DNA from: Balanoglossus misakiensis
Taxonomy: Eukaryota; Animalia; Hemichordata
Direction of reading: 5' to 3'
NCBI GenBank assembly: GCA_040954595.2
Contig: CM082580.2
Span: 3,338,783 to 3,402,782 of the forward strand
Length of the DNA stretch: 64,000 nt
This document shows positions 14 to 25,273 of the stretch, piece after piece. A program made the position numbers and the translations under genes. Under the pieces are notes generated by a model, which did not search any database, was not told the DNA's origin, and saw nothing but the letters and a program-made list of their open reading frames with translations. Position 1 is the first letter of the stretch. Every line of letters begins with the position of its first letter.

Positions 14-356
14 AGGGAGTTCCTGCCTAATTAAAACAACTCAATAAAGTAAATACACACCACTTTGCAAAGCAATCTGACCAGTAGTTCTTGAGTTACT
101 GAGTTTTGACCAAATTCACATTTTTCCAGCTAATTTGCATATTTTTGGCAATGACAACTTCATTTGAACAAACTCCCATCTACAGCCCAGCCTGCATCTG
201 CACACCAAATATCGAGGTTATACGCGCAGCGGTTTTCAAGTTTTTGATGTGGACGGACATACAGACATACATCCATCCATACATCCATCCATACATACAT
301 ACAGACGCAACCGATCCCATAAGGTCCCATGGTAAAAACCAATGGGACCTAAAAAA
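14..356. mobile_element. Non-autonomous DINE/Helentron-like interspersed repeat, copy 1
   Basis: Near-identical to 14911-15247; has an (ATCC/ATAC)n microsatellite and a terminal hairpin aggtcccatggt...accaatgggacct followed by an A-run. Family assignment is inferred from structure. Confidence 0.6.
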
Positions 357-579: not shown

Positions 580-3500
580 CTTATTTTTGCAGTCAATATC
601 AGCTCCATATTGCAGCAACAGTTTCACAACATAATCCTGTCTCCAAGAGGGGCTCATTGCTGCCATGTGGAGTGCTGTGTTGCCATCCTGTGCAAAAAAA
701 ACAAAAGCAATTACTTCATGTAAGAGATACAGCAAGATCGGGACTATAATAGGTGCGTATAAACAGTGCCGCAAAACATACTGTAGTACCAAGTTACAAT
801 GGTGGTGGTAGTGGTTGCAAAGGACACAAAACAAAACTCCAAAATGAGGAAACCATTATAGTGGTTGGTGTCTCCTCTAAATAGGCTTTTAGTTTCAGTT
901 TGTTGACAGATGAACTGAAAGACTAATCTAAAACTGTCACCATATCTTCTTTACAATAACGATTTCTACATAAATGTCTTTAAAAAAACATGATATGTAG
1001 AATGAAACTGACTATGAATATGGGTACATCCAAAGTTTAATTTGAGTTCTAACAACAATCTGACACTGTATTCATTGCTGCATATTGTAAAGGGGTCCAT
1101 AGTTTCAGTATTATGAAAGATTTCTACAGTATATTAGCATCAATTTCATGAAGAGTTTCCCTATATTAAAAAAATAAAGAGATTAAGGATGTACGTTCAG
1201 TAAAATTGAAAGTATTGTCTTTTTTTTAATTATGGATTTTTGATTCTCCTTTGTATGTATAATGAAAATCCGTAATAAAATATAGGGGTCACCGCGCTTG
1301 TTTATGAAATACAGAGCCATGAATTTGGTCGATAATAGAAGAAATCTGCTGACTCAGCATTTTTCACCAATGGTTTGTCTATGGGCAAAATTTTTAACGC
1401 AATTTATCTCAAAATAGAGCGCGGTGACCCCTATATTTTATTTGACCAATGAATTTATATTTGCTGGACTGAGCTATGTGTAAAATTACGTGAAAATGAC
1501 AATGGTAGAAGTTTGTTTTCTAGCAATTATCAATGTAATCCTATGGGAAAAAGACCGGGCGCGCAGTGTTTCGGGTTTATGTTCTGCGCGTACATCCTTA
1601 AAACAAACAAACAGTCATGTATTTGTATCAGTATAGGTATTTTACCTTGTTTTGTATGTTAACATCAGCTTTGTGTTCCAATAACAATCTCACACGGCCT
1701 TCACCATCAGACCTTGCTGCTGCAAAATGCAAAGGTGTCTCTTCATCCTGTGAGTAATGAAGGAGGAGCATGAGAACAATGTCACAAAAATTGAAATGTA
1801 ATGTGAGGTTTCCTTAAACAAACAAACAAACAAACAAACAAACAAACCAACCAACCAACAAACAAACGTTTGTATGTTGATTAGAATTAACCTGTAGAAG
1901 TCAGGTTGGTATTTACCCAGTTTTGTATGTTAGCATCAGCTTTGTGTTCCAATAACAATCTTACACGACCTTCATCACCATACTTTGCTGCAAAGTGCAC
2001 AGCTGTGTCTCCATCCTGTAAGTAATGAAGGAGGAGCATGAGAACAATGTCACAAAAATTGAAATGTTATGTGAGGTTTCCTTAAACAAACAAACAAACA
2101 AACCAACGGACAAACAAACAAATGTTTGTATGTTGATTAGAATTAACCTGTAGAAGTCAGGTTGGTATTTACCCAGTTTTGTATGTTAGCATCAGCTTTG
2201 TGTTCCAATAACAATCTTACACGACCTTCATCACCATACTTTGCTGCAAAGTGCAAAGGTGTGTCTCCATCCTGTAAGTAATGAAGGAGGAGCATGAGAA
2301 CAATGTCACAAAAATTGAAATGTATGTGAGGTTTCCTTAAACAAACAAACAAACAAACAAACAAACAAACAAACAAACAAACAAACAAACAAAATGTTTG
2401 TGTGTTGATTAGAATTAACCTGTAGACGTCATGTTGGTATTTACCTTGTTTTGTATGTTAGCATCAGCTTTGTGTTCCAATAACAATCTGACACGGCCTT
2501 CATTACCAGACCTTTCTGCAAAGTGCAAAGGTGTGTCTCCACCCTGAATTAAGGAGTGCATAAGAACAATTTCATAAAAATTTAAATGTATGTGAGGTCT
2601 CCTTAAACAAACAAACAAAATGTTTGTGTGTTGATTAGAATTAACCTGTAGACGTCATGTTGGTATTTACCTTGTTTTGTATGTTAGCATCAGCTTTGTG
2701 TTCCAATAACAATCTGATACGGCCTTCATCACCATCCTCTGCTGCTGCTGCTGCAGAGTGCAACGGTGTGTCTCCATCCTGCAAGAAGGAGGAGCATGAG
2801 AACAATGTCACAAAATTTGAAATGTAATGTGAGATTTCTTAAAACAAACAAACACACAAATAAATGTCTCTAAACTGATAGAATTAACCTGTAGAAGTCA
2901 TGTTGGTATTTACCTTGTTTTGTATGGTTACATCAGCTTTGTGTTCCAATAACAATCTTACACGACCATCATCACCATACTTTGCTGCAAAGTGCAAAGG
3001 TGTGTCTCCATCCTGTAAGTAATGAAGGAGGAGAATAAGAACAATGTCACAAAAATTGAAATGTAGTGTGAGGTTTCCTTAAACAAACAAACAAACAAAC
3101 AAACAAACAACTGATTATATGCTGATTAGAGTTAACCTGTAGAAGTCATGTTGGTATTTACCTTGTTTTGTATGTTAGCATCAGCTTTGTGTTCCAATAA
3201 CAATCTTACACGACCTTCATCGCCACACCTTGCTGCAATGTGCAAAGGTGTTTCTCCATCCTGTAAGTAATGAAGGAGGAGCATGAGAACAATTTTACAA
3301 AAATTGAAATGTAATGTGAGGTTTCTTTTAAACAAACAAACAAACAAACAAACAAAAGTTTGTACTTTGATTAGAATTTACCTGTAGAAGTCAGGTTGGT
3401 TTATATTAATGTTGTTAGACCGTCATCTTATGCTCAATGTAAGAACCTTTCAATCAGGTTGTGGAATGCCAGGTCCATTAAGGGACCGTTCAGTTTTTAC

Positions 3501-6500
3501 GGCAGGGGGGGGGGGTCCGGCAAGTTTGTGTCATTGGTTTTCAAAATCAGGCCGACCGCCCCTTCACCCAGCACCAAAAAATGATGACCCCCCCTTTGAC
3601 AGACCCAAAAATATGATGACCCCCCCCCCCCCGCCGAAAACATTCGCCGTCCTGATCCTATAGACTGTATGCAATAAAGGGAATGAGGCTCCTCACACCT
3701 CAATTATAAATTTCTTAAAGTAATTGAAGTATATAATAGTATATCCTTGCAATAAAGAAATCTATGAACTAATTCAAATGACAAGTCAATACAATAGTTG
3801 CTAGAATTGGTAAAACAAGAAAAGTGGCGGGGGTGGGCGTAAGAAAATTTTGTAAAATACAGTGCTCAAAGTTGCATTTTAATGAACTCAAAAGCAAATT
3901 AACTCAATGTTAGGGAGGACAATTTGGGGTGGCAAGAAGTCTGCCCCGGTACACTAGACAAACCAGCGAATAAATGCATGGAGGGGGTGGGTGTAAAATA
4001 AAGGGCGCGAAACTGCAATTTTGTGGACTCAAAAGCAAAAGTTCAGTGGCAAAAGTATGTGACCCCCCCCTAAACGTTTAAAAAAAAACAGATGACCCCC
4101 CCCTTTAGGACTTCAAGATTTAAGTGACCCCCCCCCCCTGGATTTTGCCGGCCCCCCCCCCCCCCCCGGCCGTAAAAACTGAACGGTCCCTAACAACAAA
4201 TTATTGCTACCGTGTGTGGACACATCATTGAAAGCAAGACTGATCATCTTTGTGGTGACTGAAACCTGGATAGCCAAGTCCAATCAGTTCCACGTGATCT
4301 TGTTCATCTTGTCATTGTTTACCGTCCACCATCGTCTCAGACAAATGGTTTGAATGTGTCGACTTTTATGACTGAGTTTGCAACAGTATTGTAATTTCAC
4401 CAGGTCGCTTAATTTTATTAGGGGACTTCAACTTCCATGTAGAAAATGAAAATCGCAACGATACCCGACAATTCATTGACTTGATAGACAGTCTTGGTCT
4501 TAAACAACATGTACGGGCCCCACTCATGAACGGGGGCACACACTGGATTTAGTAATTACTCGTATAAATGAACCATGTGTCATGAAATTTCAGCTGAATG
4601 ACATTCTCCCATCCGATCATACTTTAAAGGCACGTAAGCTGTAACTTTTGGGATAATTTTCATAATTTTTGTTTCACACTGCACTACCATTAGTCCATGC
4701 AGATGAAGGCAGTGAACTATTCACAAGCATTATAAACCCTAAATATGAGTGCATATGCAAGTTTTAACCAGATAAATAATAAAGCTTTGCCGCAAGCGAT
4801 TATGGCCGCAACCGTGGGAAAATGCAAGAAACAATGAAAATGTCGCATTTCCGGCTGTGAAACATCATAAACAAAACATGATCTCATCCACTTGAGGTCA
4901 TGGAAGTAAATGTACACCACTGAGACATCAGATTTTCATTTTTCATTGCAATATTGCACTTTTTTAAAAATTTCAGGAATTTTCGTTTTTCTTTAATTTT
5001 TGACCATTTTGTCATAAATAAGTGTTGAGCTTGATATATTATCATGAAATAGCATTTAATAGATATAATTAAAAGCATATATGAGATTATTTAAAACTTT
5101 AATTTTTTATCCAGTTGCAGCTTACGTGCCTTTAATCAGTTTTGTTACTGATCTGTCACGTCAAGGTGGTATGTGTCACGCGCAAAGCACCATGGGAGGT
5201 CCAACATGAATAAGCGTTCATTTGACTTCTGGCTGGCCTCGAGTACACATGTCAGCAGTGTCTGGACGATCACTTTCTTTGAACCTTTTACGCAGGATAT
5301 TTTGATTTTTGTGACACCGGACATTTAGTTGTGGTACCAAGTTCGTTCTCTGTGATATTTTCGGCTCGCTTGACGTTTTTAACCGTCTATTCGGATCGAT
5401 GTACTGGCCGCGGGGCTAAGCGCATACGTCGACGGGGCGTAGCTGCATAATTATGGAGTGTAATTCATGCCAAAATTAGCACCCAGCTTTTCGATGAGAG
5501 TACGTCAGCTTTTCGATGAGAGTATTCACTTTTCGATGAGAACACCCTCTTTTCGATGAGAGTACGTCAGCTTTTCGATGAGAGTATTCACTTTTCGATG
5601 AGAACACCCTCTTTTCGATGAGAGTACTCTCATCGAAAAGAGGGCGTTCTCATCGAAAAGTGAATACTCTCATCGAAAAGCTAAATAACGGACTGTACCA
5701 CAGTTGATGATTTGGCTGAGTGCTTTCATGCGGACATGTCATCTGTATTTGATATTGTTGCTCCGGCCAAAGTAAAGATCGTTCGTGACAAACCGCGCGC
5801 CCCCTGGTATGATGAGACTCTGCGTGAAGAAAAACGTACTCTTCGGCAATTTGAAAGGAAATGGAGATAACATCAACTTGAAGTAAATAGACAGATTTTT
5901 ATGGGAAAACGTGCGAACTATAATAGACTCTGTAATGAAGCACTTGCATTGTATCATAGGACTCGTATTGAAACAGCTGATCAAACTAAAATATTTAGCA
6001 TTATTGATGATTTAATAGGCGAAAAGAAATCCTCCACTTCAATTTTACCCGTTCATGATGATAAAGCAAAGTTGGCACAGCTTTCGCCGATTTCTTTACA
6101 AGTAAAATATCTAAGCTTCAGAAGCAATTTCCTAGATCTTTGACCTTAGAAAAGGTCAATGAAGTACCAACGCATTCCTTCAGAGAGTTCACTTCTGTCA
6201 CCACGGCCAGTCTTACTAAAATTATTGATGCCATGAACTCAAAATCATGTGCACTTGACCCAATTCCGACTAAACTTTTGAAATTGTGTCTTCCAAATGT
6301 AATACATGATCTAGTCAAAATAGTAAATACTTCATTTGATTCAAGTACAGTTCCTAAAATGTACAAACAGGCTTTAGTCCGCCCTTTATTGAAAAAGTCC
6401 AGTCTCGACTCCAATGTTTTATCTAATTATAGGCCGGTGTCTAATCTTGTTTTCGAACATAAATTTCTGACGAGTATTTTAGTCAGTTTTCATTGTATTC

Positions 6501-9500
6501 TAAATATCAGTCTGCTTATAGACATCATCATAGCACGGAAAGTGCCTTATTGAGAGTTCAAAACGGCATTTTACGTGCTCTTGATAGTCATAAAGAAGTT
6601 ATTCTTACACTGCTTGATTTGACCGCAGCTTTTGACACTATTAACACAAGGTATTGCTGTATCGTTTAGAACATAGGTTTGGTATTAATAGAGGATATAA
6701 TCATTAGACATGCTTTGGATCTTATTTGCTGACGATACTCAGTTGTATTTGATATGTGAACGTGCCATGGACTCGTCATTTATGGTTGAACATTGTATTG
6801 ATGATATTCGTCAATGGATGATTGAAAATCGTTTGGTTTTAAATGATACCAAGACAGAAGTGATCCATTTTCGTTCAAAATTTAAGAAATCTGTTGACCT
6901 GCCATTTCTCAGAGTCGGGAATACTGATGTTACCACGTCTAGATCCGTCCGCGATCTTGGTGCTTATTTAAACCGCTTTGCAGATATGAGTACTCACATT
7001 GTCAAATTATGTCAGTGCTGTGTCATTTGCTCTCCATAGAATTGGCCGTATTAGAAATGTTTTAGATCGCTCAAACACTGAAAGACTTGTGCATGCTTTC
7101 GTAACATCACGCGTAGATTACTGCAACAGTTTGCTGTTTGGTATTGAAGATAAGCACCTTTATAAACTTCAATTACTTCAAAATTCTGCTGCACGTCTCG
7201 TCACACGCACAAAAAGGCATGAGCATATCACACCAGTGAAACGGGAGCTACACTGGCTGCCTATCCATGCTAGAATCAATTTCAAAATTCTTCTTTTTGT
7301 CTATAAAATTTTGCACAACCAAGCTCCTGCCTATCTGTCTGATCTGATCACAGTTCATGAACCTAAACGGCTGACACGCTCAGCGTTCACACCAATTTTG
7401 GAGCCAGTGAACTGGGAGCAGAAACACTTTGGTTACCGTTCATTTTCTAATGCAGCGCCAACTCTTTGGAATGTCTTACCAAAAGAAATTAGATTGTCAC
7501 CAACCGTTGCTTCATTTAAGACATCTCTCCAAACTTACCTTTTTAAGAAGTACATGACTTTATTCACAGTTTTGTTATTTTTAATAACATTTTTATAAAG
7601 TATTAATGCCCAGTAGGCCATTTTATCAGTGTATTTTTCACGGTTTTAATATATAATTGTATTTTATGAGCTTGGTTTTTTATTGTAAAGCGGATTGATG
7701 TTTTTATTGATGGAAATCGCTCTATAAAAATAAATTATTATTATTATTATTATTATTGGTATTTACCTTGTTTTGTATGGTAATATCAGCTTTGTGTTCC
7801 ACTAACAATCTTACACGACCTTCATCACCATACTTTGCTGCAAAGTGCAAAGGTGTGTCTCCCCACTGTAAGTAATGAAGGAGGAGCATGAGAACAATGT
7901 CACAAAAATTAAAATGTACTGTGGTTTCCTTTACACACACACACACACACACAAAAAAAAAAATGTTTGCATATTTATAAGCATCAACTTGTAGAAGTCA
8001 GGTTGGTATTTACCTTGTTTTGTATGTTAGCATCAGCTTTGTGTTCCAATAACAATCTGACACGGCCTTCATCACCATACCTTACTGCAGAGTGCAAAGG
8101 GATGACTCCCCACTGTAAGTAATGAAGGAGGAGCATGAGAATAATGTCACAAAAATTGAAATGTAAGGTAGATTTCCTTAAACAAACAAACAAATGTTTG
8201 TACTTTGATTAGAATTAACTTGTAGAAGTCAGGTTGATATTAACCTTGTTTTGTATGTTAGTATCAGCTTTGTGTTCCAATAACAATCTGATATGGCCTT
8301 CATCACCATCCTCTGCTGCTGCTGCAGAGTGCAACGGTGTGTCTCCATCCTGTATGTAATGAAGGAGGAGCATGAGAACAATGTCACAAAAATAGAAATG
8401 TAATGAGAGGTTTCCTTTAAACAAAACAAAAAAACAAACAAATGTTTGTATGCATGAGTGTATTTGGCTGTAATGTATTTTAGAAAGTTGGATTATTATT
8501 ATTGTTTGTCTAGCATTTAATGCGCACAACATTACAAAGTGCTACATTGTTTTCATATTTGAATTTTACAATTTTTGTCATGGGCTTGATAGTTTGACTA
8601 AAAACACGGATATGCAGTTAAAATTAATAGTATCTTCAACATTACCCCCCCCCCCCAAGACTTTTTAACAATCTTTGATTGTTGATGGGGAGCACTATGA
8701 TGCAGAGATAGTCTGGAAACCAAATGATCATAATTATTAATAATGGTAATTTTTTCTTGTTTGATTGTTATCTGGATGTTTATTGCACAGACAATCACAC
8801 CAGTTGGGAACATTGGGACAGCTTGAGTAGCTTTTGCATATTTTTGTGTATTTCATGTGAAATTGTTCCAACAAGATGCAACAAAGTTGACATTGGCATG
8901 GCAACATGATAAAATGGAAGCCACACAAAGTTAGGAAAATGATTTGCTATAAATGTTCCATAGCTGTAATTTTTTGCTAATAATTTGATATTAGAATTCA
9001 AATTCTTTGCTGTTTCATATGTGTTGATATCCTTTACAAAAGGGCAAAATATAAACACTCACCAGGATCAGGTGATTGTCCACGTATAATTCACCCCTTG
9101 CATTGACATCATATCCATCAGCTATCAGTGACTGGATCTTTGCAATGTCACCATCCCCTGCGGCATTGATGAGAACCTGTAACAATCAACAGGCAACACT
9201 TGTTTTATCAAAATATTCTCAATATGAAATCATAAACAGGAGTTATATTATAGGAAAACATTGAAAACTTCAATGATGAAGGGAATTGAGAAAATAATTA
9301 AACTGTGAAAAAAAGATGACATCATACCATTGGTAAACATTTGGCCATGATTATTCTTCACCAAGCTAAAACAGAACGCTATGGAATGATGAATAATCTC
9401 AGTTAAGCAATAAAACACCCCCAGCCATGGTATACCACGAGATTTTGACCAGTTTACGACATATACGCACGAGCGATAGCGAGTGCGTATATGGAGTTGA

Positions 9501-12500
9501 ACTGGTCAAAATCGAGTGGTATACCATGGCTGGGGTGTTTTATTGCTATTTTATTATGCCAGTATATTGAAACTTTGCATAAAACATTTTAAAAAGGCAT
9601 TTTCTTTGACTATGATATATGACTGTGGTATATGGCTAATATATCACGGTCACGTGTCGTGTCTCGACCAATCAAATAGCGTGATTTACACCATCAATAT
9701 ACTGGTATAATATAATTATAAAGTTTTCCTCTCGATCAGACAGACTATTATTTTCTCTAGTGCAAGCTAGCTGCCCATAACTTCCATTTAAAGGTCACTT
9801 CCCTTATAAAAATGCCAACAAAGCAGCAGCTCCACAGCAGCTCTGCTGTGAAGGCATTGTGGTGATCTTGCAGACACGCTGTGGTGTTCTCGCAGAGAGT
9901 GTCTCTGCAGCAGAGGCAATGCGGCAGGTCGCAACTAAATGTGGCTCTGCAGTAGAGGTGGTAATCCCTGCAATAAGGACACAAGAGCTTGCTGCAAAGA
10001 TGCAAGGCTTTTCTCTATGCAGAAATGATGCAAGAATAATTCTCAAAGTACAAATCCATGCAGCAGGGACACAAGAATTAACCTTTTTATGATCTCCAAC
10101 TTTGGTTGACCTTAATTGATATCAGGTGATGTGAAACAAAGCTAATAATTGGCCAAAGTCATTTTGCCGCCATTTTCTAAACTTGCAAGCTTCAAACTAC
10201 ACAAGTGTCTCCAGCTAGCTGCCAGATCATGAGTATGTTCAGGTGGACTGTCTTTCATTTAATGCTTTTGGATGTACCAGATGCCAACACGGAGGTACAG
10301 CAGAAGACACTGATCATCCAAGTGTACATCTGAAAATATTTTACAAAACTTGGAATGGGAAGACAGCTTGTCGAGGACAGCGCGACATTGCACATTTATA
10401 CGATATCGGATATTTATCGTCTAGTATCGTCTAGAGTCTAGTATCGTCTAAAAACGTTAAACTAGACTGTACTTTAACAACAACTTTGCCTGCTTCCCGA
10501 CTATGTCGGACCTCAAAAATATCCGATAGTATCGATACTAGAGTCTAGTATCGTCTAAAACGTTAAAGTAGACTGTACTTTAACAACAACTTTGCCTGCT
10601 TCCCGACTATGTCGGACCTCAAAAATATCCGATAGTATCGATACTATCTATACTAGAGTCTAGTATCGTCTAAAACGTTAAAGTAGACTGTACTTTAACA
10701 ACAACTTTGCCTGCTTCCCGACTATGTCGGACCTCAAAAATATCCGATAGTATCGATACTATCGATACTAGAGTCTAGTATCGTCTAAAAACGTTAAACT
10801 AGACTGTACTTTAACAACAACTTTGCCTGCTTCCTGACTATGTCGGACCTCAAAAATATCCGATAGTATCGATACTATCGATACTAGAGTCTAGTATCGT
10901 CTAAAACGTTAAAGTAGACTGTACTTTAACAACAACTTTGCCTGCTTCCCGACTATGTCGGACCTCAAAAATATCCGATAGTATCGATACTATCGATACT
11001 AGAGTCTAGTATCGTCTAAAAACGTTAAACTAGACAGTACTTTAACAACAACTTTGCCTGCTTCCTGACTATGTCGGACCTCAAAAATATCCGATAGTAT
11101 CGATACTATCGATACTAGAGTCTAGTATCGTCTAAAACGTTAAACTAGACTGTACTTTAACAACAACTTTGCCTGCTTCCCGACTATGTCGGACCTCAAA
11201 AATATCCGATAGTATCGATACTATCGATACTAGAGTCTAGTATCGTCTAAAACGTTAAACTAGACTTTACTTTAACAACAACTTTGCCTGCTTCCCGACT
11301 GTGTCGGACCTCAAAAATATCCGATAGTATCGATACTATCGATACTAGAGTCTAGTATCGTCTAAAAACGTTAAACTAGACTGTACTTTAACAACAACTT
11401 TGCCTGCTTCCTGACTATGTCGGACCTCAAAAATATCCGATACTATCGATACTAGAGTCTAGTATCGTCTAAAACGTTAAACTAGACTGTACTTAAACAA
11501 CAACTTTCAAATTAGACGATACTAGACGATATTTTTCTTGGTGAACATGCCATGGTCGGCACAGGTCCAGTGAAATAAATTAGACGATACTCGACGATAC
11601 TGGAGGATGTAAGCGATATTTTCTAGTGTCGATACTAGACGATAAATATCCGATATCGTATAAATGTGCAATGTCGCGCCTTCATGGAGGGATGATAGAG
11701 GGAAGCGTTAAAATGCGGGTTGCCGATTGCGGGTTAGCCCGGAGACACAGGCGTCGATCTTTTCCCCAACTACGCCTGTGTCTCCGGGCTAATTGCGGGT
11801 CGTAAAATATGTTTGTGTTTTGATGATGAAAGAATAATAATATTATATGTCAACAGAAACGATCAAATGATTGCCTCCCAGAAGTTCAATTTACACGATT
11901 TGCGCCACAACTCCGGCAGCGGACTTTGACCCTCACACTCACTACTGTGTGCGCGGCCTCATTAGCATAAATTAATCGGCCATAATCCCAGTCACTTCCA
12001 GCGGTAGTACTCGCTGAAATACGTAAACACTGAGTCCAGTGAGTTTTTCACGAAAGGAGTTTTGGGACCAGAAATAATTAGAGTTCAGGCTTGTATAGGT
12101 CGTTTTATTGAATTACGCTCACTTTGCTTTCTGTTGCCGTTCAAATGTTCCTACACAAGTCGGATCGTTGCAACTACACGAATGGGGCTGGCCCGCAGCT
12201 AGCTCTGCGTACAGGTCTGTGTTGTTCCCGGCGTTACACGGCCTCCACCACAGCCCTGCAAGGCGCCATAGAAAAAACTGGTGCTTCTGCGGTCCGGATC
12301 CGGACCGCAGCTTTTTCGGCCGAAATTCGATTTTATCGAAGCAAAATCCTTTCCCTGTCTACTTCTGCCCCCTAACCGACTCCAAATATGATGCGATTAA
12401 CTTGTCCTAACGTCCGAACCACTCGCGTTTGATTCATTTTTGTGTGTTTACATGTTGAGATCGCCATATTAAATATAAGGCTTACAGCGAGTTTATCTCC

Positions 12501-14346
12501 ATGGGTAAACAAAAAAGTTTTAGGCTCGATCTCGATCACACAAAAAAATCAAATGCGTTATTGGCAGATCTTGCTATCTAACACAAATACAATGAATCAA
12601 TGCTAAAATCAACTGTTGATCAAATAAAAGGCTCGACAATCTGTCTCAAAAAGATGGTATGCATTATACACATGATGACTGACAATGAGGGCAACAGTGT
12701 ATTTTGATGACCGAGGGTGCTGCTAGTCACAACTAAAACAGTCTTGTTTTCCCGAGGGCATAGCCCGAGGGAAAACAGACTGTTTTGGTGTGACTGGCAG
12801 TCCCGAGGTCATTAAAAATACACTGTTGCCCGAATATGTCAGCCATCATGTGTTTTATAACACACCAAACCGATCGAACTGATGCCCAAGGCAACAGTTC
12901 GAAATGACTAAGGTCACGTGACGTCGTATTGACGAATCACGATCGAGGGTTCGCTGCATGGTGTGTTATAAACCAAACTGTTTCCTGTACACTGCACTTT
13001 GCGTCCATTGTGTTATCCAAGCAAGCGAGAAAAAGAAACATCTTGTTCATTTGTACGCCCTTCTTCAATAAATTAAATGTGTCCGTGTTCAGTTAATTAA
13101 CACAGCAAAAAACTCATAAAACTTCCGTTCCCCCCCCCCGACTTCAATAAATACAATTGATTCCCTAACTTTACATAAAATGATCACAACTTGGACCCCT
13201 TAGAAATTTTTGTTTCTGCATTACGGCTTTTTTTGTCCTGAACTAAATTTTGCTATTCTATGTGAAATACTCCATGATAGTGATGTAATATATAATCTCT
13301 TATAATTATATATTAATCAAGTGCGTACATGTATGTGTATGCCATGCATGCATAAATGTATGTATGCATTTTTCAGCATCAGTGCAACTGGATGCGGCAG
13401 TGTCTGCGGCAGCTCTGCAGAATAACCTAATTTGCATGCGAAAAAACAGCTCTGCCGCATCTCCACTGCTGGAGAGCTGCAGCAAACCTATTGCAGAGCT
13501 GTCAGTGCGCCGGGGCTGCAGCATGTCTGTAGCGTATGTACTGGATGCGGCAAGGATGCGGCAGTCTCACAGTCTCTGCCGCAGCTTTGCAGAATCACCT
13601 AATTTGCATGCGAAAAAACGGCTCTGCTGCGTCTACCTGCTGTAGAGCTGCAGCAAACCTGCTGTAGAGCTGCTGCAATATATCGCGGCAAGGCCTATAT
13701 TTTCATAAGTGTTACGTATGGGTCTTTATATTCCTGCCAAGCCGCTGTTCCCTCACCAGATTCATTGCCCATTAGGGGTACCTGAAATATCCCCAAAACA
13801 CCCCAAAAGTATTTTGATTAAAAATAGTGCAATGTAATCACAAATAATCTCACTATACTTATATTATTCTGAAACATATGTTAGTATTTAATACAAATGA
13901 ATGTTAAGTTTTCCTCTCGACCAGACAGACTTCTAGTATTATTTTCACTTCTGCAAGCTAACATACGTGTATCTGCCCATAACTTCAGTTCAAAAGTCAC
14001 TTACCTGTGGGTCTTTATATTCCTGCAAAGTCATTGTTCCCTCATCAGATTCACTGTCTGTTAGGTGTACCTGAAATATCCCCAAAACACACCAAAAGTA
14101 TTTTGTCCATCAAAAACAGTACAATACAATGGCATCATGAATAATCTCACTTATACTTATATTATTCTGAAACACTTGTTAGTCTAAGTGTTACCATTTG
14201 ATGAAATTTCCTCTTGATCAGACAGACCATATTTTCTCTAGTACAAACTAGCTGCTGCCCATAACTTCAGTTCAAAAGTCACTTACCTGTGGGTCTTCAT
14301 ATTTCCTGGAAGCCCTGGTTTTCTTACACCAAATATTGCCCATCAT
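580..14346 (-). CDS. Multi-exon ankyrin-repeat protein, 3' end outside the window, with an N-terminal myristoylation/palmitoylation-like motif
   Basis: Phase-0 GT-AG exons in transcript order: 14287-14346 (MMGNIWCKKTRASRKYEDPQ), 14005-14070, 13716-13781, 9063-9176 (VLINAAGDGDIAKIQSLIADGYDVNARG, N-cap ankyrin), 8245-8349, 8014-8112, 7767-7865, 3162-3260, 2914-3012, 2671-2778, 2445-2543, 2173-2271, 1917-2015, 1646-1747, 580-687. Repeats match the ankyrin consensus G-TPLH-AA--G----V-LLL---AD-N. Joining the three 5' exons is inferred from phase and from intron continuity across the 9801-13711 insertion. Confidence 0.85.
1187..1597. mobile_element. MITE with TTAA target duplication (Kolobok-like)
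   Basis: TTAA|ggatgtacg ... cgtacatcc|TTAA, with internal inverted aaatataggggtcaccgcgc / gcgcggtgacccctatattt. Confidence 0.75.
1600..3400 (-). repeat. Tandem ~230-270-bp exon+intron units, 7 ankyrin cassettes, with (AAAC)n microsatellite in the introns
   Basis: Near-identical units, each with a 99-108-nt ankyrin exon and the conserved intron motifs gaaggaggagcatgagaacaatgtcacaaaaattgaaatg and ttagaattaacctgtagaagtc. Confidence 0.95.
3482..4190. mobile_element. PIF/Harbinger-like MITE nested in the LINE endonuclease
   Basis: TIR gggaccgttcagtttttacggc / gccgtaaaaactgaacggtccc with TAA duplication; removal restores ...ARSINNK. Confidence 0.85.
4628..5131. mobile_element. Kolobok-like MITE nested in the LINE
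   Basis: TTAA|aggcacgtaagctgtaact ... agttgcagcttacgtgcct|TTAA; removal restores PSDHTLISF. Confidence 0.85.
5452..5682. repeat. Transposon-terminus-like segment with a TTTTCGATGAGA minisatellite that switches orientation
   Basis: tatggagtgtaattcatgccaaaattagcac, then about 7 direct and 3 inverted copies of ttttcgatgaga. The same terminus occurs at 25787-25818 (+) and 30170-30285 (-). Confidence 0.75.
7756..8450 (-). repeat. Three more ankyrin exon+intron units, same array on the other side of the LINE
   Basis: Same unit sequence as 1600-3400; exons at 7767-7865, 8014-8112 and 8245-8349. Confidence 0.95.
9401..9718. mobile_element. Long-hairpin non-autonomous element (Crypton-like)
   Basis: Imperfect hairpin of ~140 bp at 9406-9547 (agcaataaaacacccc...ggggtgttttattgct), then a tail with cacgtg and ccaatca. 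Classification is inferred. Confidence 0.55.
10380..11679. repeat. Foldback element: 50-bp inverted ends enclosing a ~115-bp satellite (~9.5 copies)
   Basis: gcgcgacattgcacatttatacgatatcggatatttatcgtctagtatcg at 10380-10429 and its reverse complement at 11630-11679; tandem units at 10431-11505 with period 115-116. Confidence 0.9.
11735..11791. mobile_element. 57-bp miniature TAG...CTA element with 9-bp TSD
   Basis: attgcgggt|tagcccggagacacaggcgt...acgcctgtgtctccgggcta|attgcgggt. Confidence 0.8.
12663..12971. mobile_element. Long-hairpin non-autonomous element (Crypton-like)
   Basis: Imperfect hairpin of ~190 bp centred on cccgagggcatagcccgaggg, followed by a gtcacgtgac-containing tail. Confidence 0.55.
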
Positions 14347-14375
14347 GCAGCTGAAACACACCAAAAGAAAACCCA
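13716..14375 (-). repeat. Triplicated ~285-bp exon+intron unit forming the 5' coding exons of the ankyrin gene
   Basis: Three related exons ending EYKDPY / EYKDPQ / KYEDPQ with shared intron sequence (ttttcctctcga..cagacagac, gcccataacttcagttcaaaagtcacttac). Confidence 0.8.
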
Positions 14376-14910: not shown

Positions 14911-15247
14911 AGGGAACTTCCTGCCTAATTAAAACAACTCAATAAAGTAAATAACACCACTTTGCAAAGCAATCTGACCAGTAGTTCTTGAGTTACCGAG
15001 TTTTGACCAAATTCACATTTTCCAGCTAATTTGCATATTTTTGGTGATGACGCCTTCATTTGAACAAACTCCCATCTACAGCCCAGCCTGCATCTGCACA
15101 CCAAATATCATGGTGATACACGCAGCGGTTTTCAAGTTTTTGATGTGGACGGACATACAGACATACATACATCCATCCATCCATACATACATACAGACGC
15201 AACCGATCCCATAAGGTCCCATGGTATATACCAATGGGACCTAAAAA
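14911..15247. mobile_element. Non-autonomous DINE/Helentron-like interspersed repeat, copy 2
   Basis: Direct, near-identical copy of 14-356. Confidence 0.6.
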
Positions 15248-17210: not shown

Positions 17211-20136
17211 AAAAGTTGACGTGACCAAACATAGGACTTGTTGTGAATCAATATTATAATTTATATACCACTAAATTTTCACTGGTCTTTCAATTTCATG
17301 GGGCATAAAGTTTTTTTGTTTTTTTTGTTGTTGTTGTTGTTGTTTTTTTTTGGGGGGGGGGGTTGTTTGCTGTTGTTGTTTTGTTTGTTTGTTTGTTGTT
17401 GTTGTTTTAGGGGGGCTTTGCATTTTCATAATGTTATCTTATTAATTCAGTCTTTTTCTTTGTCTTAGTATACTTCGCATTTCCTAAATGTTTTTTTTTG
17501 TTTGTTTGGTTACAGTCCGGTCCCTGTGAGTGACTTTAAAATTATGTTTACAGACATTATCTGCATACTAAAAGTGATTGACTCATATGCTGTTCTGCAG
17601 CACAGCACTGCCAGTGGTAGAATCAAGACAGTAAACTACCCTGGGAGGGGTCATTCGAGGTCACAGCTTACTCTCGAACTCCAAGCGCTATCCAGTCAAG
17701 AATCGGGGATAGGCCAATCCTGCATTCTGTACCGCTACCTTGTGCCATTACCAATCTTTCAAAATTTGAATAAATCTGAGTTGTTTTTCCTCCAAATTTC
17801 ATGTGTGTGCCAATAGTTTTGTTATTTTATGGCAACAGTGTTGGTTTTAACTGACAATCAATAACTGTCATTTTTATCTTTAGAGCTTTTATTTGCCACT
17901 TATATGTATGAAGGAATGAATGAGTAAATGAGTGAGTGAGTGAGCGAGCGTGCAGGCGTGCGTGTGTGTACATACAAATTAAACTCATCTACAGTAAATT
18001 GCTTGACTTACTTTCATTTATGTCCTGTAGACAACCGACTCCATTCCAGATCTTCACACACTAAACAGATCAGGACAGCTTTAAGTTCTGGTTCAGCAGC
18101 CAGATTTTCAAACATGCAGAATCAGATGGTGGTATCACTGAAAAGTGGTGTAAATCCCAGGTAACTGTACAGCACCACAACTTTGACGGAGTTTACTGAA
18201 GCAAAAACTCCTCCAGATTAGAATCTCAACCCTGTGAACAAAAGAAAAATATATTAAAATCACAGTTGAAAATAATTTTAATAGTCATTACTGGTAGCTT
18301 GCCAATGTGGCCTAGAATCATTGAAAATGGCTTGCGATAACTGTGTTTGGTAGAGCAATTAATTTCTACAGTTGTTCAGTTGTCAGTGTGGCCTAAAATG
18401 GCTTATAGTGTCTGTTTCATTTCTCTGGCAAAATTCATGCATTATTCACAAGCTAGAATAACTTTATATGAATGATTTAACAGTGTGGATTTACAGAAGT
18501 ATGGTGAACAACTGACAGTCATTGTTGGTCAAAGAAAACAGTGTACAGTAAATCTTGGAGTGAATACTGCCCTCATGTTGCCACTTTGTTCAAATATATT
18601 GGGGAGGGGACATGAATAGTCTTGTTGCTTGCAATCGTTGCCACACGAGAAAAATCCTATAATGCACCGTTTATAAACCTTCGGTGGCCTACTGACGTAG
18701 TACGTCACTGCACAAATATGTGCGCATATTGTTACCTGGTTAATAGGGCACCCCAGCTCGACAAGCCATCACCCACAGTACTGACAGTATTCAAGTGCTG
18801 ATCTGCTCAGCCGCTGACAACTAGTGTGTTTTATCTTCTCCCACTGCAACTTGTATCTAACTGACTGATTACAACCGGACTGCCTGTTAAAGGAACAAAG
18901 TCTCTCTCTCTCTCTCTCTCTCATATTCACTCGTATGTCACTTGTTCATCTTAATATACAAAGTCATGATTATTTTAAAGAATTACGCTTTAAAGTTACC
19001 ATAAATACTAAGTGTGATATGAAGCAACGAACACCAACATTTTTATTGTGAGAGTAAAGTTCTCGTCACACGGCCAAAGTCCACATCCTCGGAAGCAACT
19101 TCCTATCAATCTTTATTTGAATTTTAATGTAGTATACATCTCATTAAATATATGTGCACTGTCTACTTTTGACCCTCTAGAACCAAAAATAAGTCATTGC
19201 CAACGGTAATGTTTGAAAGTCTTTTCCGGGTATCCAAGGTATCCGACGCAAATGTTCAAAGTCCTGTCACTGGATTGGCCGAAGTTGACCATCGCCTTCT
19301 GTATTTTCAAGGGCAGCTGAAATACGAAGCATGCACCCAGAGATTAGTGAAATACATTTTTGAATCACGTGAGATACTCTTCCGGGCAAACAGACAGAGG
19401 TGTACGTGTGGGTATTGTGAGGCGTTTCTTGGTGATTGGGGGGGGGGTGTGTGTTTTGTTGTGGTGAGATTTTTGCCTTTGGCACGGTTGCTAGTTGTCT
19501 GCTTATGAAGCATGGTGTCAGCATGCCAGGACAAAATTGAACGCGTGATGAAACAGTTACATTCCCTGATGTCTTGGCCAAACAAAAGCCAATGTGTGGA
19601 AGTAACATTGACAAGTGAACACTTCCGTCAGTTAGTTTATTGTCAGCACTAAAAGTAATACTCCAGACATATTCTCTTTTTATGCTCATTTACAGGGCGC
19701 GGACCGAGTTGAAGCAATATGGGATTTAGCATGTTTCAGTGATCAGAATATCAAAAATATCTCACCAAAATAAATGATAATAATGCCAAGAGTGACCATC
19801 TTTGTCCTTTTAAAGCTCTTAGCTGTAACCTCTTGCTATGTTTTCAGTGTTTTTGTTTTGTGTATCTACTTCGGTGTCTTATTCAAATCCCTGAAACACG
19901 ATGAAATGCCAACCATTTAGCTTGTATAATATACGAAATATATTATATGTATGTACAGTCAGCATTTTTAATGTGCAAAATTTGAATTCAAGTCTGGACT
20001 AGAATTCATCTCTCGACAATAACAATGGCCGTTACACGCATACAGACTATGTTGAGTACTGGGCATATAAGCATGTTGTTTGGAGTAGAGCAAGAAATTG
20101 CATTTGGTACACAGCCAAAAGTTACAGCTATTGTCC

Positions 20137-22892
20137 CTAAACAGTCACCCACCTTCCTGGTATAACCCAACTCTCGGCAAACTCTGTGGTATTGGAGGTC
20201 TTTGAACCATCTGACTTCAACAAGTCCCGTCCGCCCTCTACGCTCCCATCACCGAACATTCCGCACAGCCCGCCCTCTAAATCCTCGTTGCCAATGGAGA
20301 CGTCGGCTTCGTGAGCCTTCCCCATCCATCTCAGAGTGACGTCATCTTTGTTGAGGTGCAACTCCACCATGTTGTCGTCTGCTCGAATGTAACCCAAGTC
20401 GTCACCAATGGACAGTGTGCGCGCGTCTACTGGATATCCATTGACCTGTGTGCAGTATTTTACCAAAAACAGACCATTTATGAAACTGAAAACACTGACC
20501 GTAGCTGCCAATTTTTGCATTATTTTCATGATTTTATTTTCCAATTTAAATTGGCCCATCTAAATGAGCTTACTGATAGGTATACATGAACACCTTATCG
20601 ATGCCCGATTGTGACTGCATGTTGCAGTTTGAACACGCTATGTATTAAAACAGGTGCCGCACCGATTTAATCAGCCTCCGTACAAAACAGTACGCAGCTA
20701 TTGTGGTATGCGTCGCCAAGAGATGACAAACTGATGCAAATGCAAGTAACATGGCTTAATGGTGAGGATTTTAGAGGATAGGGAATATATTTGAAGTATT
20801 TTATTGTGGAAAAATATGTAAAAAATGGCAGCTGTAGGAGTTTTCACCTATGTTTTTCTAATTATGTCATTGACACATGCATCTAACCCCCACATGTTTT
20901 ACGGGACCGGTGAAGAGTTGATCTTGCCATACTATAAAGATATTTAAAATAACACTATTTTTTCTGCGATTTTGTTGTTCTCAAAATGATAACGTTTCTA
21001 ACTCACAAGAATAGAATGATCTTCAAGAAAAGAATAAGTGTAGCCTCCGTCAACTTTCGTTGTGACAGACACCATTCTGGTAGGTGGTTTGCTTGGATGG
21101 GATCGACCGCGGAAAGCAGCGGATATTTCGAAAGAGGGTGTTCTTCTCATACAATCCTTCACCAACGTGTAGCTGCAGAAACCCTGGAAACTGTACTTGG
21201 TGCCGCTGAAAGTGCGCATGTGTGGATCCCCGTGACCTCCTGCTCTGATACCTGGAAGAGTAATATGTTTCATAAATCCTTTATCAAACATCCGATCTCA
21301 AGTTAAATTTGAATTATGTGGACAATCTTCATGACCATATTCGATTTGTGTCTGAATCAGCTACCAATTGAAAGTTACCAAAGTTACTGACTGACTGATA
21401 AGTTGGTTGGTAGGTCGGTCGGTCAGTTGCTTGCTTGCTTGATTGATTGATTGATTGATTGACTGACTGACTGACTGACAGACTGACTGGATGATCGGTT
21501 GGTTGGTCGACTGATTTATTGATTGATTGTGTTTCATTATAAAAGACAACTTACCACATGCGTCTGACTTGCTTAAGGTAACATCCCCACCAACAACCAG
21601 AGAAGAAACGTTCCATGCAAATAGATCGCCGTCAAGTGAGCAGTTACCAAACACTTCATCGACTTCTTTGTTGCTCAACGCTTTGGACCATATGTTGAAT
21701 TCCGTCAGGGCGCCGACGAAGGCTTGGTTGCTATCGTAACCGCCTCCGACCGTGCCCTGTCGCTGCCCCAGAACCCAAACGCCCCCGCCGAATATCGTCT
21801 GCTCGCTTCTCAGACCAGTCGCGCTGGTAACCAAGGCGCCATCTTTGTGGACCGTCCAGTTGCCGCCCGCCGAAGACCAAGATGCGCACAAGTGGTGCCA
21901 CTTGCCGTCGTTTAAGTTCGCCCCGGGGTCGGTCTGACGTCGTTCACCCTTGATGACAACGTCAAGCTGTCGCGTGTCGAGCAGCGCGAACTCGTTTGTA
22001 TCGCCCGGAACGGCGTAAGAGACTGGCGTAGAGCTTCGTCCGGTGTCGTTTGATTTCAGCCATAAACACACAGTCATGGCTGACAGTTCAGGAACACTGA
22101 CGTTGACTTTTACATCGGTGTTCGCACTGTTCAAGTTCAGGGTGTCTGCTTCTGCTTGCGTACCTGGGGAGAGAGACAGGCAGACAGAGGGGAGGGAGAC
22201 GGACAGATGGAGAAAGACATATATGGCCAGGGGAAGGTGGGGACAGCGACACACAGAAAAAAAGCCGGTGACACAGTCACATTTTGTGAAGTGGATGAAC
22301 TGATCACAAAATAATCCCTATAACTAAATTGGTAATACGTGCACTGGCCAGGTATACTAGTATAACAACATACACTTTAATTAATACGCTCGTGTCAAAT
22401 TAATATTAGGCCTACTTTTCAGAAGTCGTACATGCAACGCCAAAATGACATTTACACAAAACTTGGGGAAATGTGTTTTGATACTTACCTCTTTTCTGCA
22501 AGTGTACCTTTGTGGGAGTTTTCTGAGAAACAAAAGATAGGCCTACATGTAATTTTAATGGTACAGTTAGCCCCAGCATTTAGCATTTTGTTGACTTTCC
22601 ACCCAAATACATGATTGCACAGTATATCCCTATACTATCAACTATCAACGACATTCAATTGTGGTGGAAAAGGCAAGTGCGTTGTCGATCGCATTTTGTG
22701 ATTTCTCATGTTGACATAGTGTGTTGTGAAGGCTTGATTTTAGCTGTACCGTCAACTTTCAGACGTTCCATCGAGCATTTTGACACTATTTTGTCACGTT
22801 TTTAGCCCTATACTTACATGAGCGTCCCCTCTCAGCGCTGAGACCAACAGCACTAAAGCAAGAGCAACCAGACACACCTTCAGCTCCATCAT
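20137..22892 (-). CDS. Secreted pentraxin + von Willebrand factor type D domain protein, copy 1
   Basis: Exons 22818-22892 (signal peptide MMELKVCLVALALVLLVSALRGDAH), 22489-22522 (KTPTKVHLQKR), 21555-22163 (pentraxin: TVCLW, WHHLCASWSS, LGQ, FVGALTEFNIW), 21007-21251 (GDPHMRTFSG..FQGFCSY), 20153-20445 (GLCG, FAESW). Splice phases are consistent. The 3' end is unresolved: read-through stop at 20137 or a further exon. Confidence 0.88.
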
Positions 22893-25273
22893 ACAGGCCC
22901 ACCTTTGTGTCTATGCACCAAATCAACTTGTATCAAGGCCCTAAGCCTTATTAAATCTAATACCCTCTGAATGGGAGTAATTGTCCATAAAAATGCCAGT
23001 AAAACTTTAATGCAATTACGTGGGTAACCGGCCTGGCCAAATGTTACTGGATATAAAACGATTCTTTGCAAGATCAATGACCATCATGTTTGAAATGTCT
23101 CCCCGGCTCTCCCTCGCCCTATGCCTTCCTCCCCACCCACCCTCTCTCCCCCTCTCTCTTGTTCTCTCCCCTCTCGCTCGCTCTCTTTCGCTCTATCTGT
23201 CTCCCTCCTCCCTGTTCTTTCTCTCTCCCCCCGTTCCCCCTCGCTACCCAGAAGTCCCTCGTCTCTTCTCCCTCCCTCCTCTTTCCTCCTCTCCCGTCCC
23301 TTCTCCGACTTCAGTTGTTCTGCGTGCATTTCTCTGTAAATAATGTTTTTACGTCACATACTTATCATAGTAAGGAATCTATGTTTTTCGTGACGTTTGT
23401 GCCATGCATAAATATGAACTCATTACTCAAAGTTGGGGTTTATAATTTCTCATGTTCTCTTCACACTGATTTGTACTTTCCTTTTGGTCAATTTACATCA
23501 GTAACATTTCTAATTTGATGATGTTCGCATTAAATGCATGGCATGATAATTTTATGATATTCTGTTTTGTCTGGAATAGTTTTAATTTAAATACGCGAAA
23601 GACACATACATGTACTTGATATTAATTATATTTTAAAATCCTCTGCAGTCAGTAGTTTTAATTACCCTATTATCATGAATATAGGATCAAAGATTTCATG
23701 CAAGCACCCCGAATTCCCTCCCACCAGAGGTGTTTGTGAAGATTACCTTTATTCACTGATAATATTGTCGACTGTGACTCCAAATTAACGTATATTACGT
23801 GCGAACTTGACGTCACGGGTATTTAGTTCTGTGCCATTTGGTTGCCCAATGGTCTTATAAGTTTTAAAAACATATTTCAAAGCTGTCGTAGGCTGTAATT
23901 CACTATCATGTTTCTCCGAATCGAATATACCACGTCATGTATTGATCACTGCCAAGTCGACAAACTCTTTCAGAAGATCAGCAACATACAAATTTCAAAA
24001 ACGCAACATAATATTTTGACAACTATATTATTTTCCCTTTTTTCAAATTATACTTAATTTCAACTATGCGGTGTAATATTTTTACTGTGCGGTTTTTCGA
24101 ATTAGCAGAAAAATTTACGATTTTCGATGCATATGATCGTAATACGATTGATTATATTTGCTCAACTGTTATTTTCGTAAGACTAGAATTAGTTCCTGTA
24201 AAATGTATTTACTTTGGGTATTTCTAAAACTAGTATTACCGGTACTCACTGACGTGCAATCATGTTTTGAACATAATTTAGTGACATTATTGAACGAAGC
24301 ACTTCTCAACATTTGACAAGTTTACTCATTTTTTTTTATTTATTTGGGATGCATAAAATTCAGTAGGTTAATTTCATTTCATTACTACCGTTGTGTATGA
24401 ATTGAAAAATAATAATAAAAAGAATGTAAAACTGAGAGAATGTGGTACTTAGTGGCAGCTGTGCCTTGATTTGCCAGTTTGTTGAAAGGAGTGCTGACGG
24501 ATATATGACCGATTAAATTTTGTGTATTTGTTTTTGTATTATGAACACACCATATATGGAAAGTCCACCCACGGAATATGTTTTCACTGAAAAAACAAAC
24601 AAATAAACACATTCGCTCGAAAGATAATCAAGTATGGCGTGACGTGGTCTTTCTGATATCTATTCGGGTCAAATTCAATATGGCGGTACCTGTGCTCTTC
24701 TCGTTTCTATGACAACGACTTAGCTTCATAAATTTAATGACTGTGTTCTTTTGTTTTTATGGCCCACTTGAGTAGATTAACTCCAAACTGAAGGGATTAC
24801 ACATTATTGCAGATTATTCCTTTTTACACTAAAAGTTAAAGTAAGTAGTTTGATTTCTCGGGATTTTAAAATTTAGCTATAGGTAGAACCGCCTACGAGG
24901 TCCGAAGCGTTTTATAGAAAGGTGTGTTGTATTCCATTCTCAATCGCTGATTCTATAGTTAGTGGGTTCTCCTCGTATACACACACATTCGACTGGTTTA
25001 TACAATGTTTAATTTATAATTGTTTAACACTGGTCTCAAATGTTTGTCAACTCAGCTAATCCTGAAAATAAATTATTAGTAATAGTATCCACCAGGTGGT
25101 AAGGCTTTAATGTACCACGGTCCTTCGAACCGTACAGAGCTTTGGCGTGGTTTGGTGTATGTATGAGTGTGGATGGGTGTGCTTTGACAAAACGATAAAA
25201 TATTTGATGAGTAATCGACGACCACAAAAATTTAGGCAAAAAAAAATGGCAAAACAAGCGACCATCGACAGCT

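What the first reader, a model, noticed from the sequence alone, without database searches (positions are those of the whole stretch)
1646..8349. DARPin-like array of ten interchangeable single-ankyrin exons with variation focused on the binding surface
Seen: ten tandem exon+intron units, each exon one ankyrin repeat (99/102/105/108 nt), all phase 0-0, all open and all with GT-AG. They sit between a distinct N-cap exon (9063-9176) and a divergent exon (580-687). The scaffold RLLLEHKAD.NIQN is nearly invariant. Variation concentrates at the turn (K/W then D/W/G) and in helix 1 after TPLH: SAAAAED, SAVRY, FAAKY, IAARC, FAAKY, SAAAAAED, FAERS, FAAKY, FAAKY, FAAARS. Established: the beta-turn and inner helix form the ankyrin ligand surface and are the positions randomised in DARPin libraries. 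Inference: any subset of exons stays in frame, so exon skipping plus unequal crossover could generate a repertoire of binders, i.e. a natural variable ankyrin recognition system, possibly immune.
Basis: partly seen in the sequence, partly recalled or inferred. Interest (0 to 1): 0.85.

Follow-up and report, generated by a model that had tools for sequence, protein, structure and literature searches.

The report
Fast-evolving ankyrin exon-cassette sensor gene
An animal gene builds its binding domain from ten copied one-repeat exons whose target-facing positions change faster than the introns beside them, and the genome likely holds hundreds of such exons, so it is likely one member of a fast-diversifying family of intracellular recognition proteins, although mix-and-match splicing within one animal is untested.

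Summary
There are ten intact phase-0 ankyrin exons with AG/GT ends. Corrections: a 4.5-kb insertion splits the array, a decayed eleventh cassette lies near 1025-1107, and three small upstream exons may add a lipid-anchored N-terminus. Surface codons vary more than the co-duplicated introns (0.30 vs 0.11, P 0.0001-0.001). The scaffold varies less (0.07, P about 0.05). Exon 1 and exon 6 are near-identical between diverged introns, which points to DNA exchange. DNA contigs suggest hundreds of related cassettes genome-wide, with changes piled on positions 10, 13 and 14; this is a rough figure. No RNA run was listed, so skipping is untested. No orthologue was found, and the gene runs off the window, so the effector domain is unseen. 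The scan has noted such arrays before: twice in this genome and once in a feather star, with a Roc-COR GTPase and a death-fold domain (unchecked AI notes). Best reading: a germline-diversified ankyrin sensor working like brown-algal LRR-ROCO genes and fungal high-identity-repeat NLRs. Verdict: new variant of a known kind.

The parts
14287..14350 (-). Candidate first coding exon. The ATG at 14343 opens a Met-Gly start with Cys at position 6 and several basic residues, a predicted myristoylation/palmitoylation membrane anchor; ends in phase 0
   Evidence: AG/GT ends and translation; the lipid-anchor reading rests on recalled motif rules; splicing to the array is inferred
14005..14070 (-). Candidate 66-nt phase 0-0 acidic spacer exon, tandem duplicate of its neighbours
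   Evidence: open, AG/GT; self-BLAST 13702-14028 vs 13989-14311 at 77%
13716..13781 (-). Second candidate 66-nt phase 0-0 spacer exon, weaker donor
9063..9176 (-). N-cap-like ankyrin exon, 38 codons
   Evidence: open, AG/GT; matches repeat-protein stretches at up to 55% identity; no Pfam hit
8245..8349 (-). Cassette 1 (two extra Ala codons)
8014..8112 (-). Cassette 2
   Evidence: Pfam Ank
7767..7865 (-). Cassette 3
3261..7766 (-). Standard cassette intron split by about 4.4 kb of inserted repeats, with LINE-like reading-frame pieces on the + strand at 6065-7598
   Evidence: intron resumes at 3410-3261; frames; very high depth at 3410-5215; the LINE label is from recalled motifs, and Pfam gave no hit on the two pieces scanned
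3162..3260 (-). Cassette 4
2914..3012 (-). Cassette 5
2671..2778 (-). Cassette 6 (three extra Ala codons; 2 differences from cassette 1 over 99 aligned nt)
2445..2543 (-). Cassette 7
2173..2271 (-). Cassette 8
1917..2015 (-). Cassette 9 (2 nt from cassette 8)
1646..1747 (-). Cassette 10 (one extra Ala codon)
1025..1107 (-). Decayed eleventh cassette, frameshifted by a deletion in helix 1
580..687 (-). Divergent 36-codon ankyrin exon; the gene likely continues beyond position 1
   Evidence: no stop at its end and a GT donor; no Roc-like sequence elsewhere in the window

Best explanation
This is the 5' part of an ankyrin-repeat gene whose ten one-repeat exons are copies of one exon-plus-intron unit and vary fastest at target-facing positions; it likely encodes the sensor end of an intracellular, probably membrane-anchored recognition protein that is diversified mainly in the germline. 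Shown: the cassette anatomy, the surface excess over introns, one exon pair nearly identical between diverged introns, and one dead cassette. Inferred: unequal crossing-over and gene conversion change cassette number, order and sequence within and between many paralogues; phase-0 boundaries keep every product in frame; selection keeps the stacking scaffold and favours new residues at positions 2, 3, 5, 10, 13 and 14, so the stacked repeats present a changing concave surface. Inferred from unchecked notes on other pieces of this genome, not tested here: the downstream part is a Roc-COR GTPase switch plus a death domain, so binding of a foreign ligand would trigger defence or cell-death signalling. 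Exon skipping could add variants but is untested.
For: Intact coding: 10 of 10 cassettes are open with only whole-codon insertions, while 5 of 10 acceptor-side intron flanks carry gaps of 1, 1, 5, 7 and 1 nt. Per-site diversity: surface first and second codon positions 0.297 (11 of 14 sites variable), introns 0.112 (39 of 97), scaffold 0.071 (14 of 52), third positions 0.100. Permutation P for surface above intron is 0.0001, or 0.0012 without the near-twin cassettes 6 and 9. pN surface 0.27 against overall pS 0.12. Star-tree neutral simulations give P of 0.001 or less. Exchange: cassettes 1 and 6 differ at 2 of 99 exon sites but 16 of 106 flanking intron sites (Fisher P 0.0009; 0.04 after correcting for 45 pairs), and 62 of 171 site pairs fail the four-gamete test. 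Large family: in DNA run X1 single-copy contigs have depth about 27-31, cassette 8 draws 184 contigs with summed depth 20,000-259,000, one 126-nt contig alone has depth 1,473, and the GGT form of codon 16, carried by 5 of 10 window cassettes, is only 285 of 61,202 depth. Of 17 variants listed, 12 change the residue and 11 of those are at positions 10, 13 and 14; 5 of the 11 are absent from all ten window cassettes. A single-copy-depth contig has two cassettes 399 nt apart, a spacing not in the window. Precedent: near-identical repeats with hypervariable sites mark fungal NLR sensors and are enriched with NLR-type ATPases (PMC13449251); one-repeat exons under diversifying selection mark brown-algal ROCOs. 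Ankyrin arrays followed by a Roc-type motif exist: 12 of 270 fetched proteins, with a weak Pfam Roc hit in 2 of the 4 scanned.
Against: By minimum mutation counts, surface non-synonymous over synonymous is only about 1.7, P about 0.10, and over the whole exon pN equals pS (0.112 vs 0.117). The star-tree simulation overstates significance and neighbouring sites are not independent. Position 30 is variable but off the DARPin surface, and position 33 is invariant. Surface bias is generic (39 of 39 controls, ratios up to 4.6 against 3.4 here). Four-gamete failures can also come from repeated mutation. The tool states that summed contig depth is no copy number; overlapping short contigs inflate it, X2 has uneven depth, and X1 may be the assembled sample. 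Variants were listed only for codons 7-19. No Roc-COR or death domain lies in the window, and DNA look-ups did not link this gene to the two Roc-COR notes from the same genome (0 windows), so the effector may differ. No orthologue was found.
Confidence: 0.6

Rival explanations
1. Combinatorial splicing is the main diversity generator: each animal or cell skips different cassettes of one gene to make a DARPin-like repertoire.
For: All cassettes are phase 0-0 with shared splice signals. Brown-algal ROCO genes with one repeat per exon have annotated splice variants (PMC11378527 section 11).
Against: All ten cassettes keep near-identical acceptors and GT donors, which fits constitutive use as well. 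Four of ten share one helix-1 motif. Frame compatibility is a by-product of duplicating a phase-0 unit.
Confidence: 0.15
2. A fast-evolving binder in a non-immune conflict or recognition role, such as self/non-self or gamete recognition, a ubiquitin-ligase substrate adaptor, or transposon control.
For: Diversifying selection does not name the ligand. The C-terminus is unseen. High-identity ankyrin arrays occur with other effectors (TRADD-N-like; HEPN plus nSTAND3), and fungal high-identity repeats are known from allorecognition (PMC13449251).
Against: The other effectors seen are themselves defence-type domains. Unchecked notes report Roc-COR-death behind similar arrays in this genome.
Confidence: 0.15
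3. Neutral tandem expansion: a repeat-prone exon-intron unit with an intronic (GTTT)n tract amplified like a minisatellite; the scaffold is under ordinary constraint and the surface merely tolerates change, or the gene is decaying.
For: Whole-exon pN equals pS. Count-based surface excess is not significant (P about 0.10). Surface bias is universal in the controls. A relic cassette and a large insertion are present.
Against: Tolerance predicts surface diversity at or below intron level; it is 2.4 to 2.7 times higher. No stop or frameshift in 10 of 10 cassettes. Multi-base changes to Trp arose at two neighbouring turn positions. Three or four bases segregate at single surface sites genome-wide.
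Confidence: 0.1

Closest known systems
[quoted passage not shown]
   Same: One repeat per equal-length exon, frame-compatible; diversifying change on the concave face; exchange within and between genes; inactivated copies inside introns; multigene family.
   Different: Ankyrin instead of LRR or TPR; phase 0 instead of phase 2; an animal; no inverted cassette found in this window; ROC-COR and splice variants not shown here.
Fungal NLRs with high internal conservation (HNWD and HIC-ANK genes; PMC13449251: passages and section 12 read)
   Same: Near-identical repeats (78% amino-acid identity here) with a few hypervariable ligand-facing residues, repeat exchange, non-canonical repeat lengths of 34-36 residues.
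   Different: Here each repeat is its own exon with a co-duplicated intron; the array is N-terminal; no NACHT or NB-ARC domain is seen in the window.
DAPK1-type ankyrin-ROC-COR-death proteins (PMC4917528: passages read)
   Same: About ten ankyrin repeats; if the unchecked notes hold for this gene, the same ankyrin, ROC-COR, death order.
   Different: No kinase exon recognised upstream; a predicted lipid anchor instead; repeats are young, near-identical and hypervariable; apparently a large family.
DARPin libraries (PMC8229355 and PMC4308713: passages read)
   Same: 33-residue module between caps; variation at the beta-turn and helix 1 (positions 2, 3, 5, 10, 13 randomised in ANK-N5C; the 2, 3, 5, 13, 14, 33 set is recalled).
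   Different: Natural and DNA-evolved; position 33 is fixed, position 30 varies, helix 1 takes Ala insertions; diversity is far below a random library.

Membership tests
Ankyrin-repeat protein | 33-residue repeats matching the ankyrin profile | tested here: met
   Pfam Ank above cut-off for the 2 repeat exons scanned; PDB hits are ankyrins and DARPins
Exon-shuffled repeat receptor (brown-algal type) | One repeat per frame-compatible exon | tested here: met
   10 of 10
Exon-shuffled repeat receptor (brown-algal type) | Diversifying selection on the ligand face | tested here: met
   Surface above introns, P 0.0001-0.0012; count-based test only P about 0.10; no codon-model test run
Exon-shuffled repeat receptor (brown-algal type) | Exchange of repeats within or between genes | tested here: inconclusive
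   1 of 45 pairs significant after correction; 62 of 171 four-gamete failures; paralogues not available as sequence
Exon-shuffled repeat receptor (brown-algal type) | Non-coding or inverted repeat copies in introns | tested here: inconclusive
   One same-strand relic; no inverted copy in the window
Exon-shuffled repeat receptor (brown-algal type) | Alternative splicing of repeat exons | not testable with these tools
   No RNA holder listed
ROCO / DAPK-like | ROC-COR tandem domain (and death domain) | not testable with these tools
   Gene leaves the window at position 1; no genome held; none inside the window
HIC NLR | High repeat identity with hypervariable sites | tested here: met
   78% mean identity; most variable positions 14, 13, 30, 10, 5, 3
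HIC NLR | NACHT, NB-ARC or other STAND ATPase domain | not testable with these tools
   Downstream exons unseen
Somatically rearranged receptor (VLR type) | Cell-specific DNA assembly from a cassette reservoir | not testable with these tools
   Only contigs were available; the germline gene here is already filled with cassettes, unlike an empty VLR locus (recalled)

The most novel reading that the evidence does not exclude
The genome carries a reservoir of several hundred to over a thousand ankyrin cassettes, many more than its close N-cap exons would need at ten per gene (N-cap bins about 20-24 single-copy depths against 680 or more for a cassette). This pool feeds membrane-anchored Roc-COR-death sensors by conversion and by regulated skipping or somatic exchange, giving each animal an anticipatory intracellular binder repertoire: a natural DARPin immune system in an invertebrate deuterostome.
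Probability: 0.12. Interest if true: 0.93.

Novelty: new variant of a known kind. Interest (0 to 1): 0.62.

Why it matters
Exon-per-repeat diversified sensors are published for brown algae (LRR, TPR), and high-identity hypervariable repeats for fungal NLRs. An animal family doing this with ankyrin exons, at the positions engineers randomise, would extend the strategy to invertebrate animals and show natural selection using the DARPin surface. I found no paper on such an animal family in six searches; the library lacks most subscription papers. The short, regular cassettes make the open question, germline versus splice-level or somatic diversity in invertebrate immunity, directly testable with long reads.

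Tried and rejected
No whole genome is held, so the 3' end and paralogues could not be read. No RNA holder listed; this says nothing on expression. Homologue searches: the cassette profile returned only unrelated many-repeat proteins (best 120 of 4,485 shown); the N-cap gave 26 candidates and no hit; the divergent exon gave no candidate; the representatives search with the N-cap gave nothing above 55% identity among the 150 listed of 836. The Atlas gave generic ankyrin clusters and pentraxins for the neighbour gene, so the taxon was not fixed; 'acorn worm' comes only from earlier AI notes. A Roc-COR profile from 12 fetched proteins found nothing in the window. Look-ups of earlier findings by sequence and by nearby place were blank. 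The first control regex was too strict (3 of 270 proteins) and was relaxed (39 of 270). I dropped the idea that 18640-18913 is this gene's promoter: its duplicate at 30818-31092 abuts a vault-RNA-like hit. The depth-1,473 contig has 13 differences from cassette 8, the same count as cassette 7 gives, so it is not claimed as a new variant. Runs X3 and X4 each gave one cassette contig at depth under 5 (8 differences in 120 nt; 268-nt spacing in X4): a weak hint only. No structure was predicted, because no single stretch of the window encodes more than one repeat. No supplementary files were read; the site-model tables of the two algal papers were not seen.
Full report
OBSERVATION. The minus strand carries ten ankyrin exons at 8245-8349, 8014-8112, 7767-7865, 3162-3260, 2914-3012, 2671-2778, 2445-2543, 2173-2271, 1917-2015 and 1646-1747. 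All ten are open, phase 0-0 and bounded by AG and GT; the lengths above 99 nt come from one to three extra GCA codons in helix 1. The introns are copies too: a shared donor side, a variable (GTTT)n tract and a shared acceptor side. Eight are 127-173 nt. The third is 4,506 nt because repeats were inserted into it. A frameshifted relic cassette lies at about 1025-1107 (score 97.5, maximum of 300 shuffles 74). No other or inverted copy is in the window.

GENE ANATOMY. Upstream lie the N-cap-like exon (9063-9176) and three small tandem-duplicated candidate exons (14287-14350, 14005-14070, 13716-13781). The first has an ATG at 14343 giving Met-Gly with Cys6 and basic residues, a predicted lipid anchor (motif rules recalled). 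All join in phase 0, but their splicing to the array is inferred. Downstream is a divergent ankyrin exon (580-687) that ends in a donor. The gene likely leaves the window; no genome is held and no Roc-like sequence is inside the window. The window is animal DNA by its content (U2 and vault RNA hits; pentraxin exons). 'Acorn worm' is from unchecked notes only.

SELECTION. Numbering sets TPLH at 6-9. I fixed the surface set before testing as positions 2, 3, 5, 13, 14, 33 (recalled DARPin design) plus 10; PMC4308713 randomises 2, 3, 5, 10, 13 and 33 on the beta-turn and helix 1 (passages). Pairwise pN is 0.27 on the surface and 0.07 elsewhere; pS is 0.12 and intron divergence 0.11. Per-site diversity is 0.297 at surface first and second codon positions (11 of 14 variable), 0.112 in introns (39 of 97) and 0.071 in the scaffold (14 of 52). 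Permutation gives P 0.0001 for surface above intron, 0.0012 without cassettes 6 and 9, and about 0.05 for scaffold below intron. Star-tree simulations agree but overstate significance. Against: by minimum mutation counts the surface excess over synonymous change is 1.7-fold, P about 0.10, and whole-exon pN equals pS. Position 30 is highly variable and 33 is fixed. Surface bias by itself is ordinary: 39 of 39 fetched proteins with six or more regular repeats show it, median ratio 1.7, range 1.3-4.6 among the nine most repetitive, against 3.4 here. The excess over introns is what argues for diversifying selection.

EXCHANGE. Cassettes 1 and 6, 5.6 kb apart, differ at 2 of 99 aligned exon sites but 16 of 106 flanking intron sites (P 0.0009; 0.04 after 45 tests; the only pair to pass). 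62 of 171 informative site pairs fail the four-gamete test. Gene conversion or unequal crossing-over is the simplest cause; repeated mutation can add to the second count.

FAMILY SIZE. Five runs were listed, none RNA. Run X1 holds a 652-nt contig with no difference from intron 8364-9015 at depth 31, so it may be the assembled sample, and single-copy depth is about 27-31. Laid on cassette 8 at 80% likeness, X1 gave 184 contigs and summed depth 20,408-259,406. One 126-nt contig has depth 1,473, about 49 single-copy units. The GGT form of codon 16, carried by 5 of 10 window cassettes, has depth 285 (about ten units, as two haplotypes would give) against 60,918 for GGC. The tool warns that summed depth is no copy number, and overlapping short contigs inflate it, so I conclude only 'likely hundreds'. 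Of 17 variants listed, all in codons 7-19, 12 change the residue; 11 of these are at positions 10, 13 and 14 and one at 16; five of the 11 are in none of the window's cassettes. Sites near contig ends are not listed, so positions 2, 3, 5 and the C-terminal scaffold were not examined. A depth-27 contig has two cassettes 399 nt apart, a spacing absent from the window: another haplotype or paralogue. N-cap bins reach only about 20-24 units at 88% likeness; this gap may mean longer arrays, diverged N-caps, or overcounting.

RELATIVES. No orthologue was found. Twelve of 270 fetched proteins are ankyrin arrays followed by a Roc-type motif (weak Pfam Roc in 2 of 4 scanned), and others carry TRADD-N-like or HEPN plus nSTAND3 domains. 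They show that such architectures exist, not that this gene has one. Unchecked notes describe ankyrin cassette arrays with, or likely leading to, a Roc-COR-death core on two other pieces of this genome and in a feather star. My DNA look-ups did not link this gene to them.

MECHANISM. Shown: cassette anatomy, intact frames, surface excess, one conversion-like pair, one dead cassette. Inferred: duplication of a phase-0 unit makes gain, loss and swap frame-safe; recombination among many copies and selection on the concave face renew binding specificity in the germline; the stacked repeats act as the sensor of a membrane-anchored protein. Borrowed from notes: a Roc-COR-death effector and hence a defence role. 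Untested: transcription, skipping, somatic change. Confidence 0.6; splicing-driven repertoire 0.15; non-immune recognition 0.15; neutral expansion 0.1.

COMPARISON. It works like brown-algal LRR-ROCO genes, where each repeat is one exon, shuffled, positively selected on the concave face and alternatively spliced (PMC3341825; PMC11378527), and like fungal HIC NLRs (PMC13449251). Membership of the ROCO or NLR families could not be tested. DAPK1 has ten ankyrins, ROC-COR and a death domain behind a kinase (PMC4917528). PMC8195603 (passages) treats ankyrins fused to death-fold adaptors as likely invader sensors in marine animals. Six literature searches showed no paper on an animal single-exon ankyrin cassette family (listings and abstract starts only).

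VERDICT. Real, under surface-focused diversification, probably one of many copies. New variant of a known kind; interest 0.62. The boldest open reading, a cassette reservoir giving an individual anticipatory repertoire, has probability about 0.12.

Noticed in passing
window 18640-25523 and 30818-37672: A tandem duplication at about 90% identity holding two copies of a minus-strand gene with a pentraxin exon (Pfam PF00354) followed by VWD-like exons (VWD label recalled, no Pfam hit on the piece scanned).
   Followed up: partly
window 30696-30825 (-): Vault-RNA hit just above Rfam's cut-off, overlapping a tRNA-Arg-like hit (30725-30798); its upstream region is duplicated at 18640-18913 without the RNA.
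   Followed up: no
window 27389-27579 (+); 25274-25402 and 37424-37552 (+): A U2 snRNA gene and two 129-nt tRNA hits, one in each duplicated block, likely intron-containing.
   Followed up: no
window 10431-11507 and 47646-49143: Tandem arrays of 115-nt and 88-nt units at about 96% identity; the first lies inside the ankyrin gene's long upstream intron.
   Followed up: no
window 55232-58219 (-): Reading-frame pieces that resemble RUN-domain-containing protein 1 (recalled; no Pfam hit).
   Followed up: no
window 9721-9804 (-): A piece of the small-exon intron unit (similar to 14207-14288 and 13906-14006), suggesting about 3.9 kb was inserted just after the third small exon.
   Followed up: partly
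window 18012-18230 (-): An AG/GT-bounded stretch that could be a 5' untranslated exon of the ankyrin gene; no support beyond splice-like ends.
   Followed up: no
proteins P0006, P0008, P0009, P0011, P0014, P0016, P0023, P0038, P0052, P0055, P0096, P0106: Unnamed 1,345-1,956-residue proteins from public assemblies with long ankyrin arrays followed by a Roc-type GTPase motif.
   Followed up: partly
window 20-355 and 14918-15247: Two copies of a dispersed repeat at 95% identity, one in the intron after the divergent ankyrin exon.
   Followed up: no
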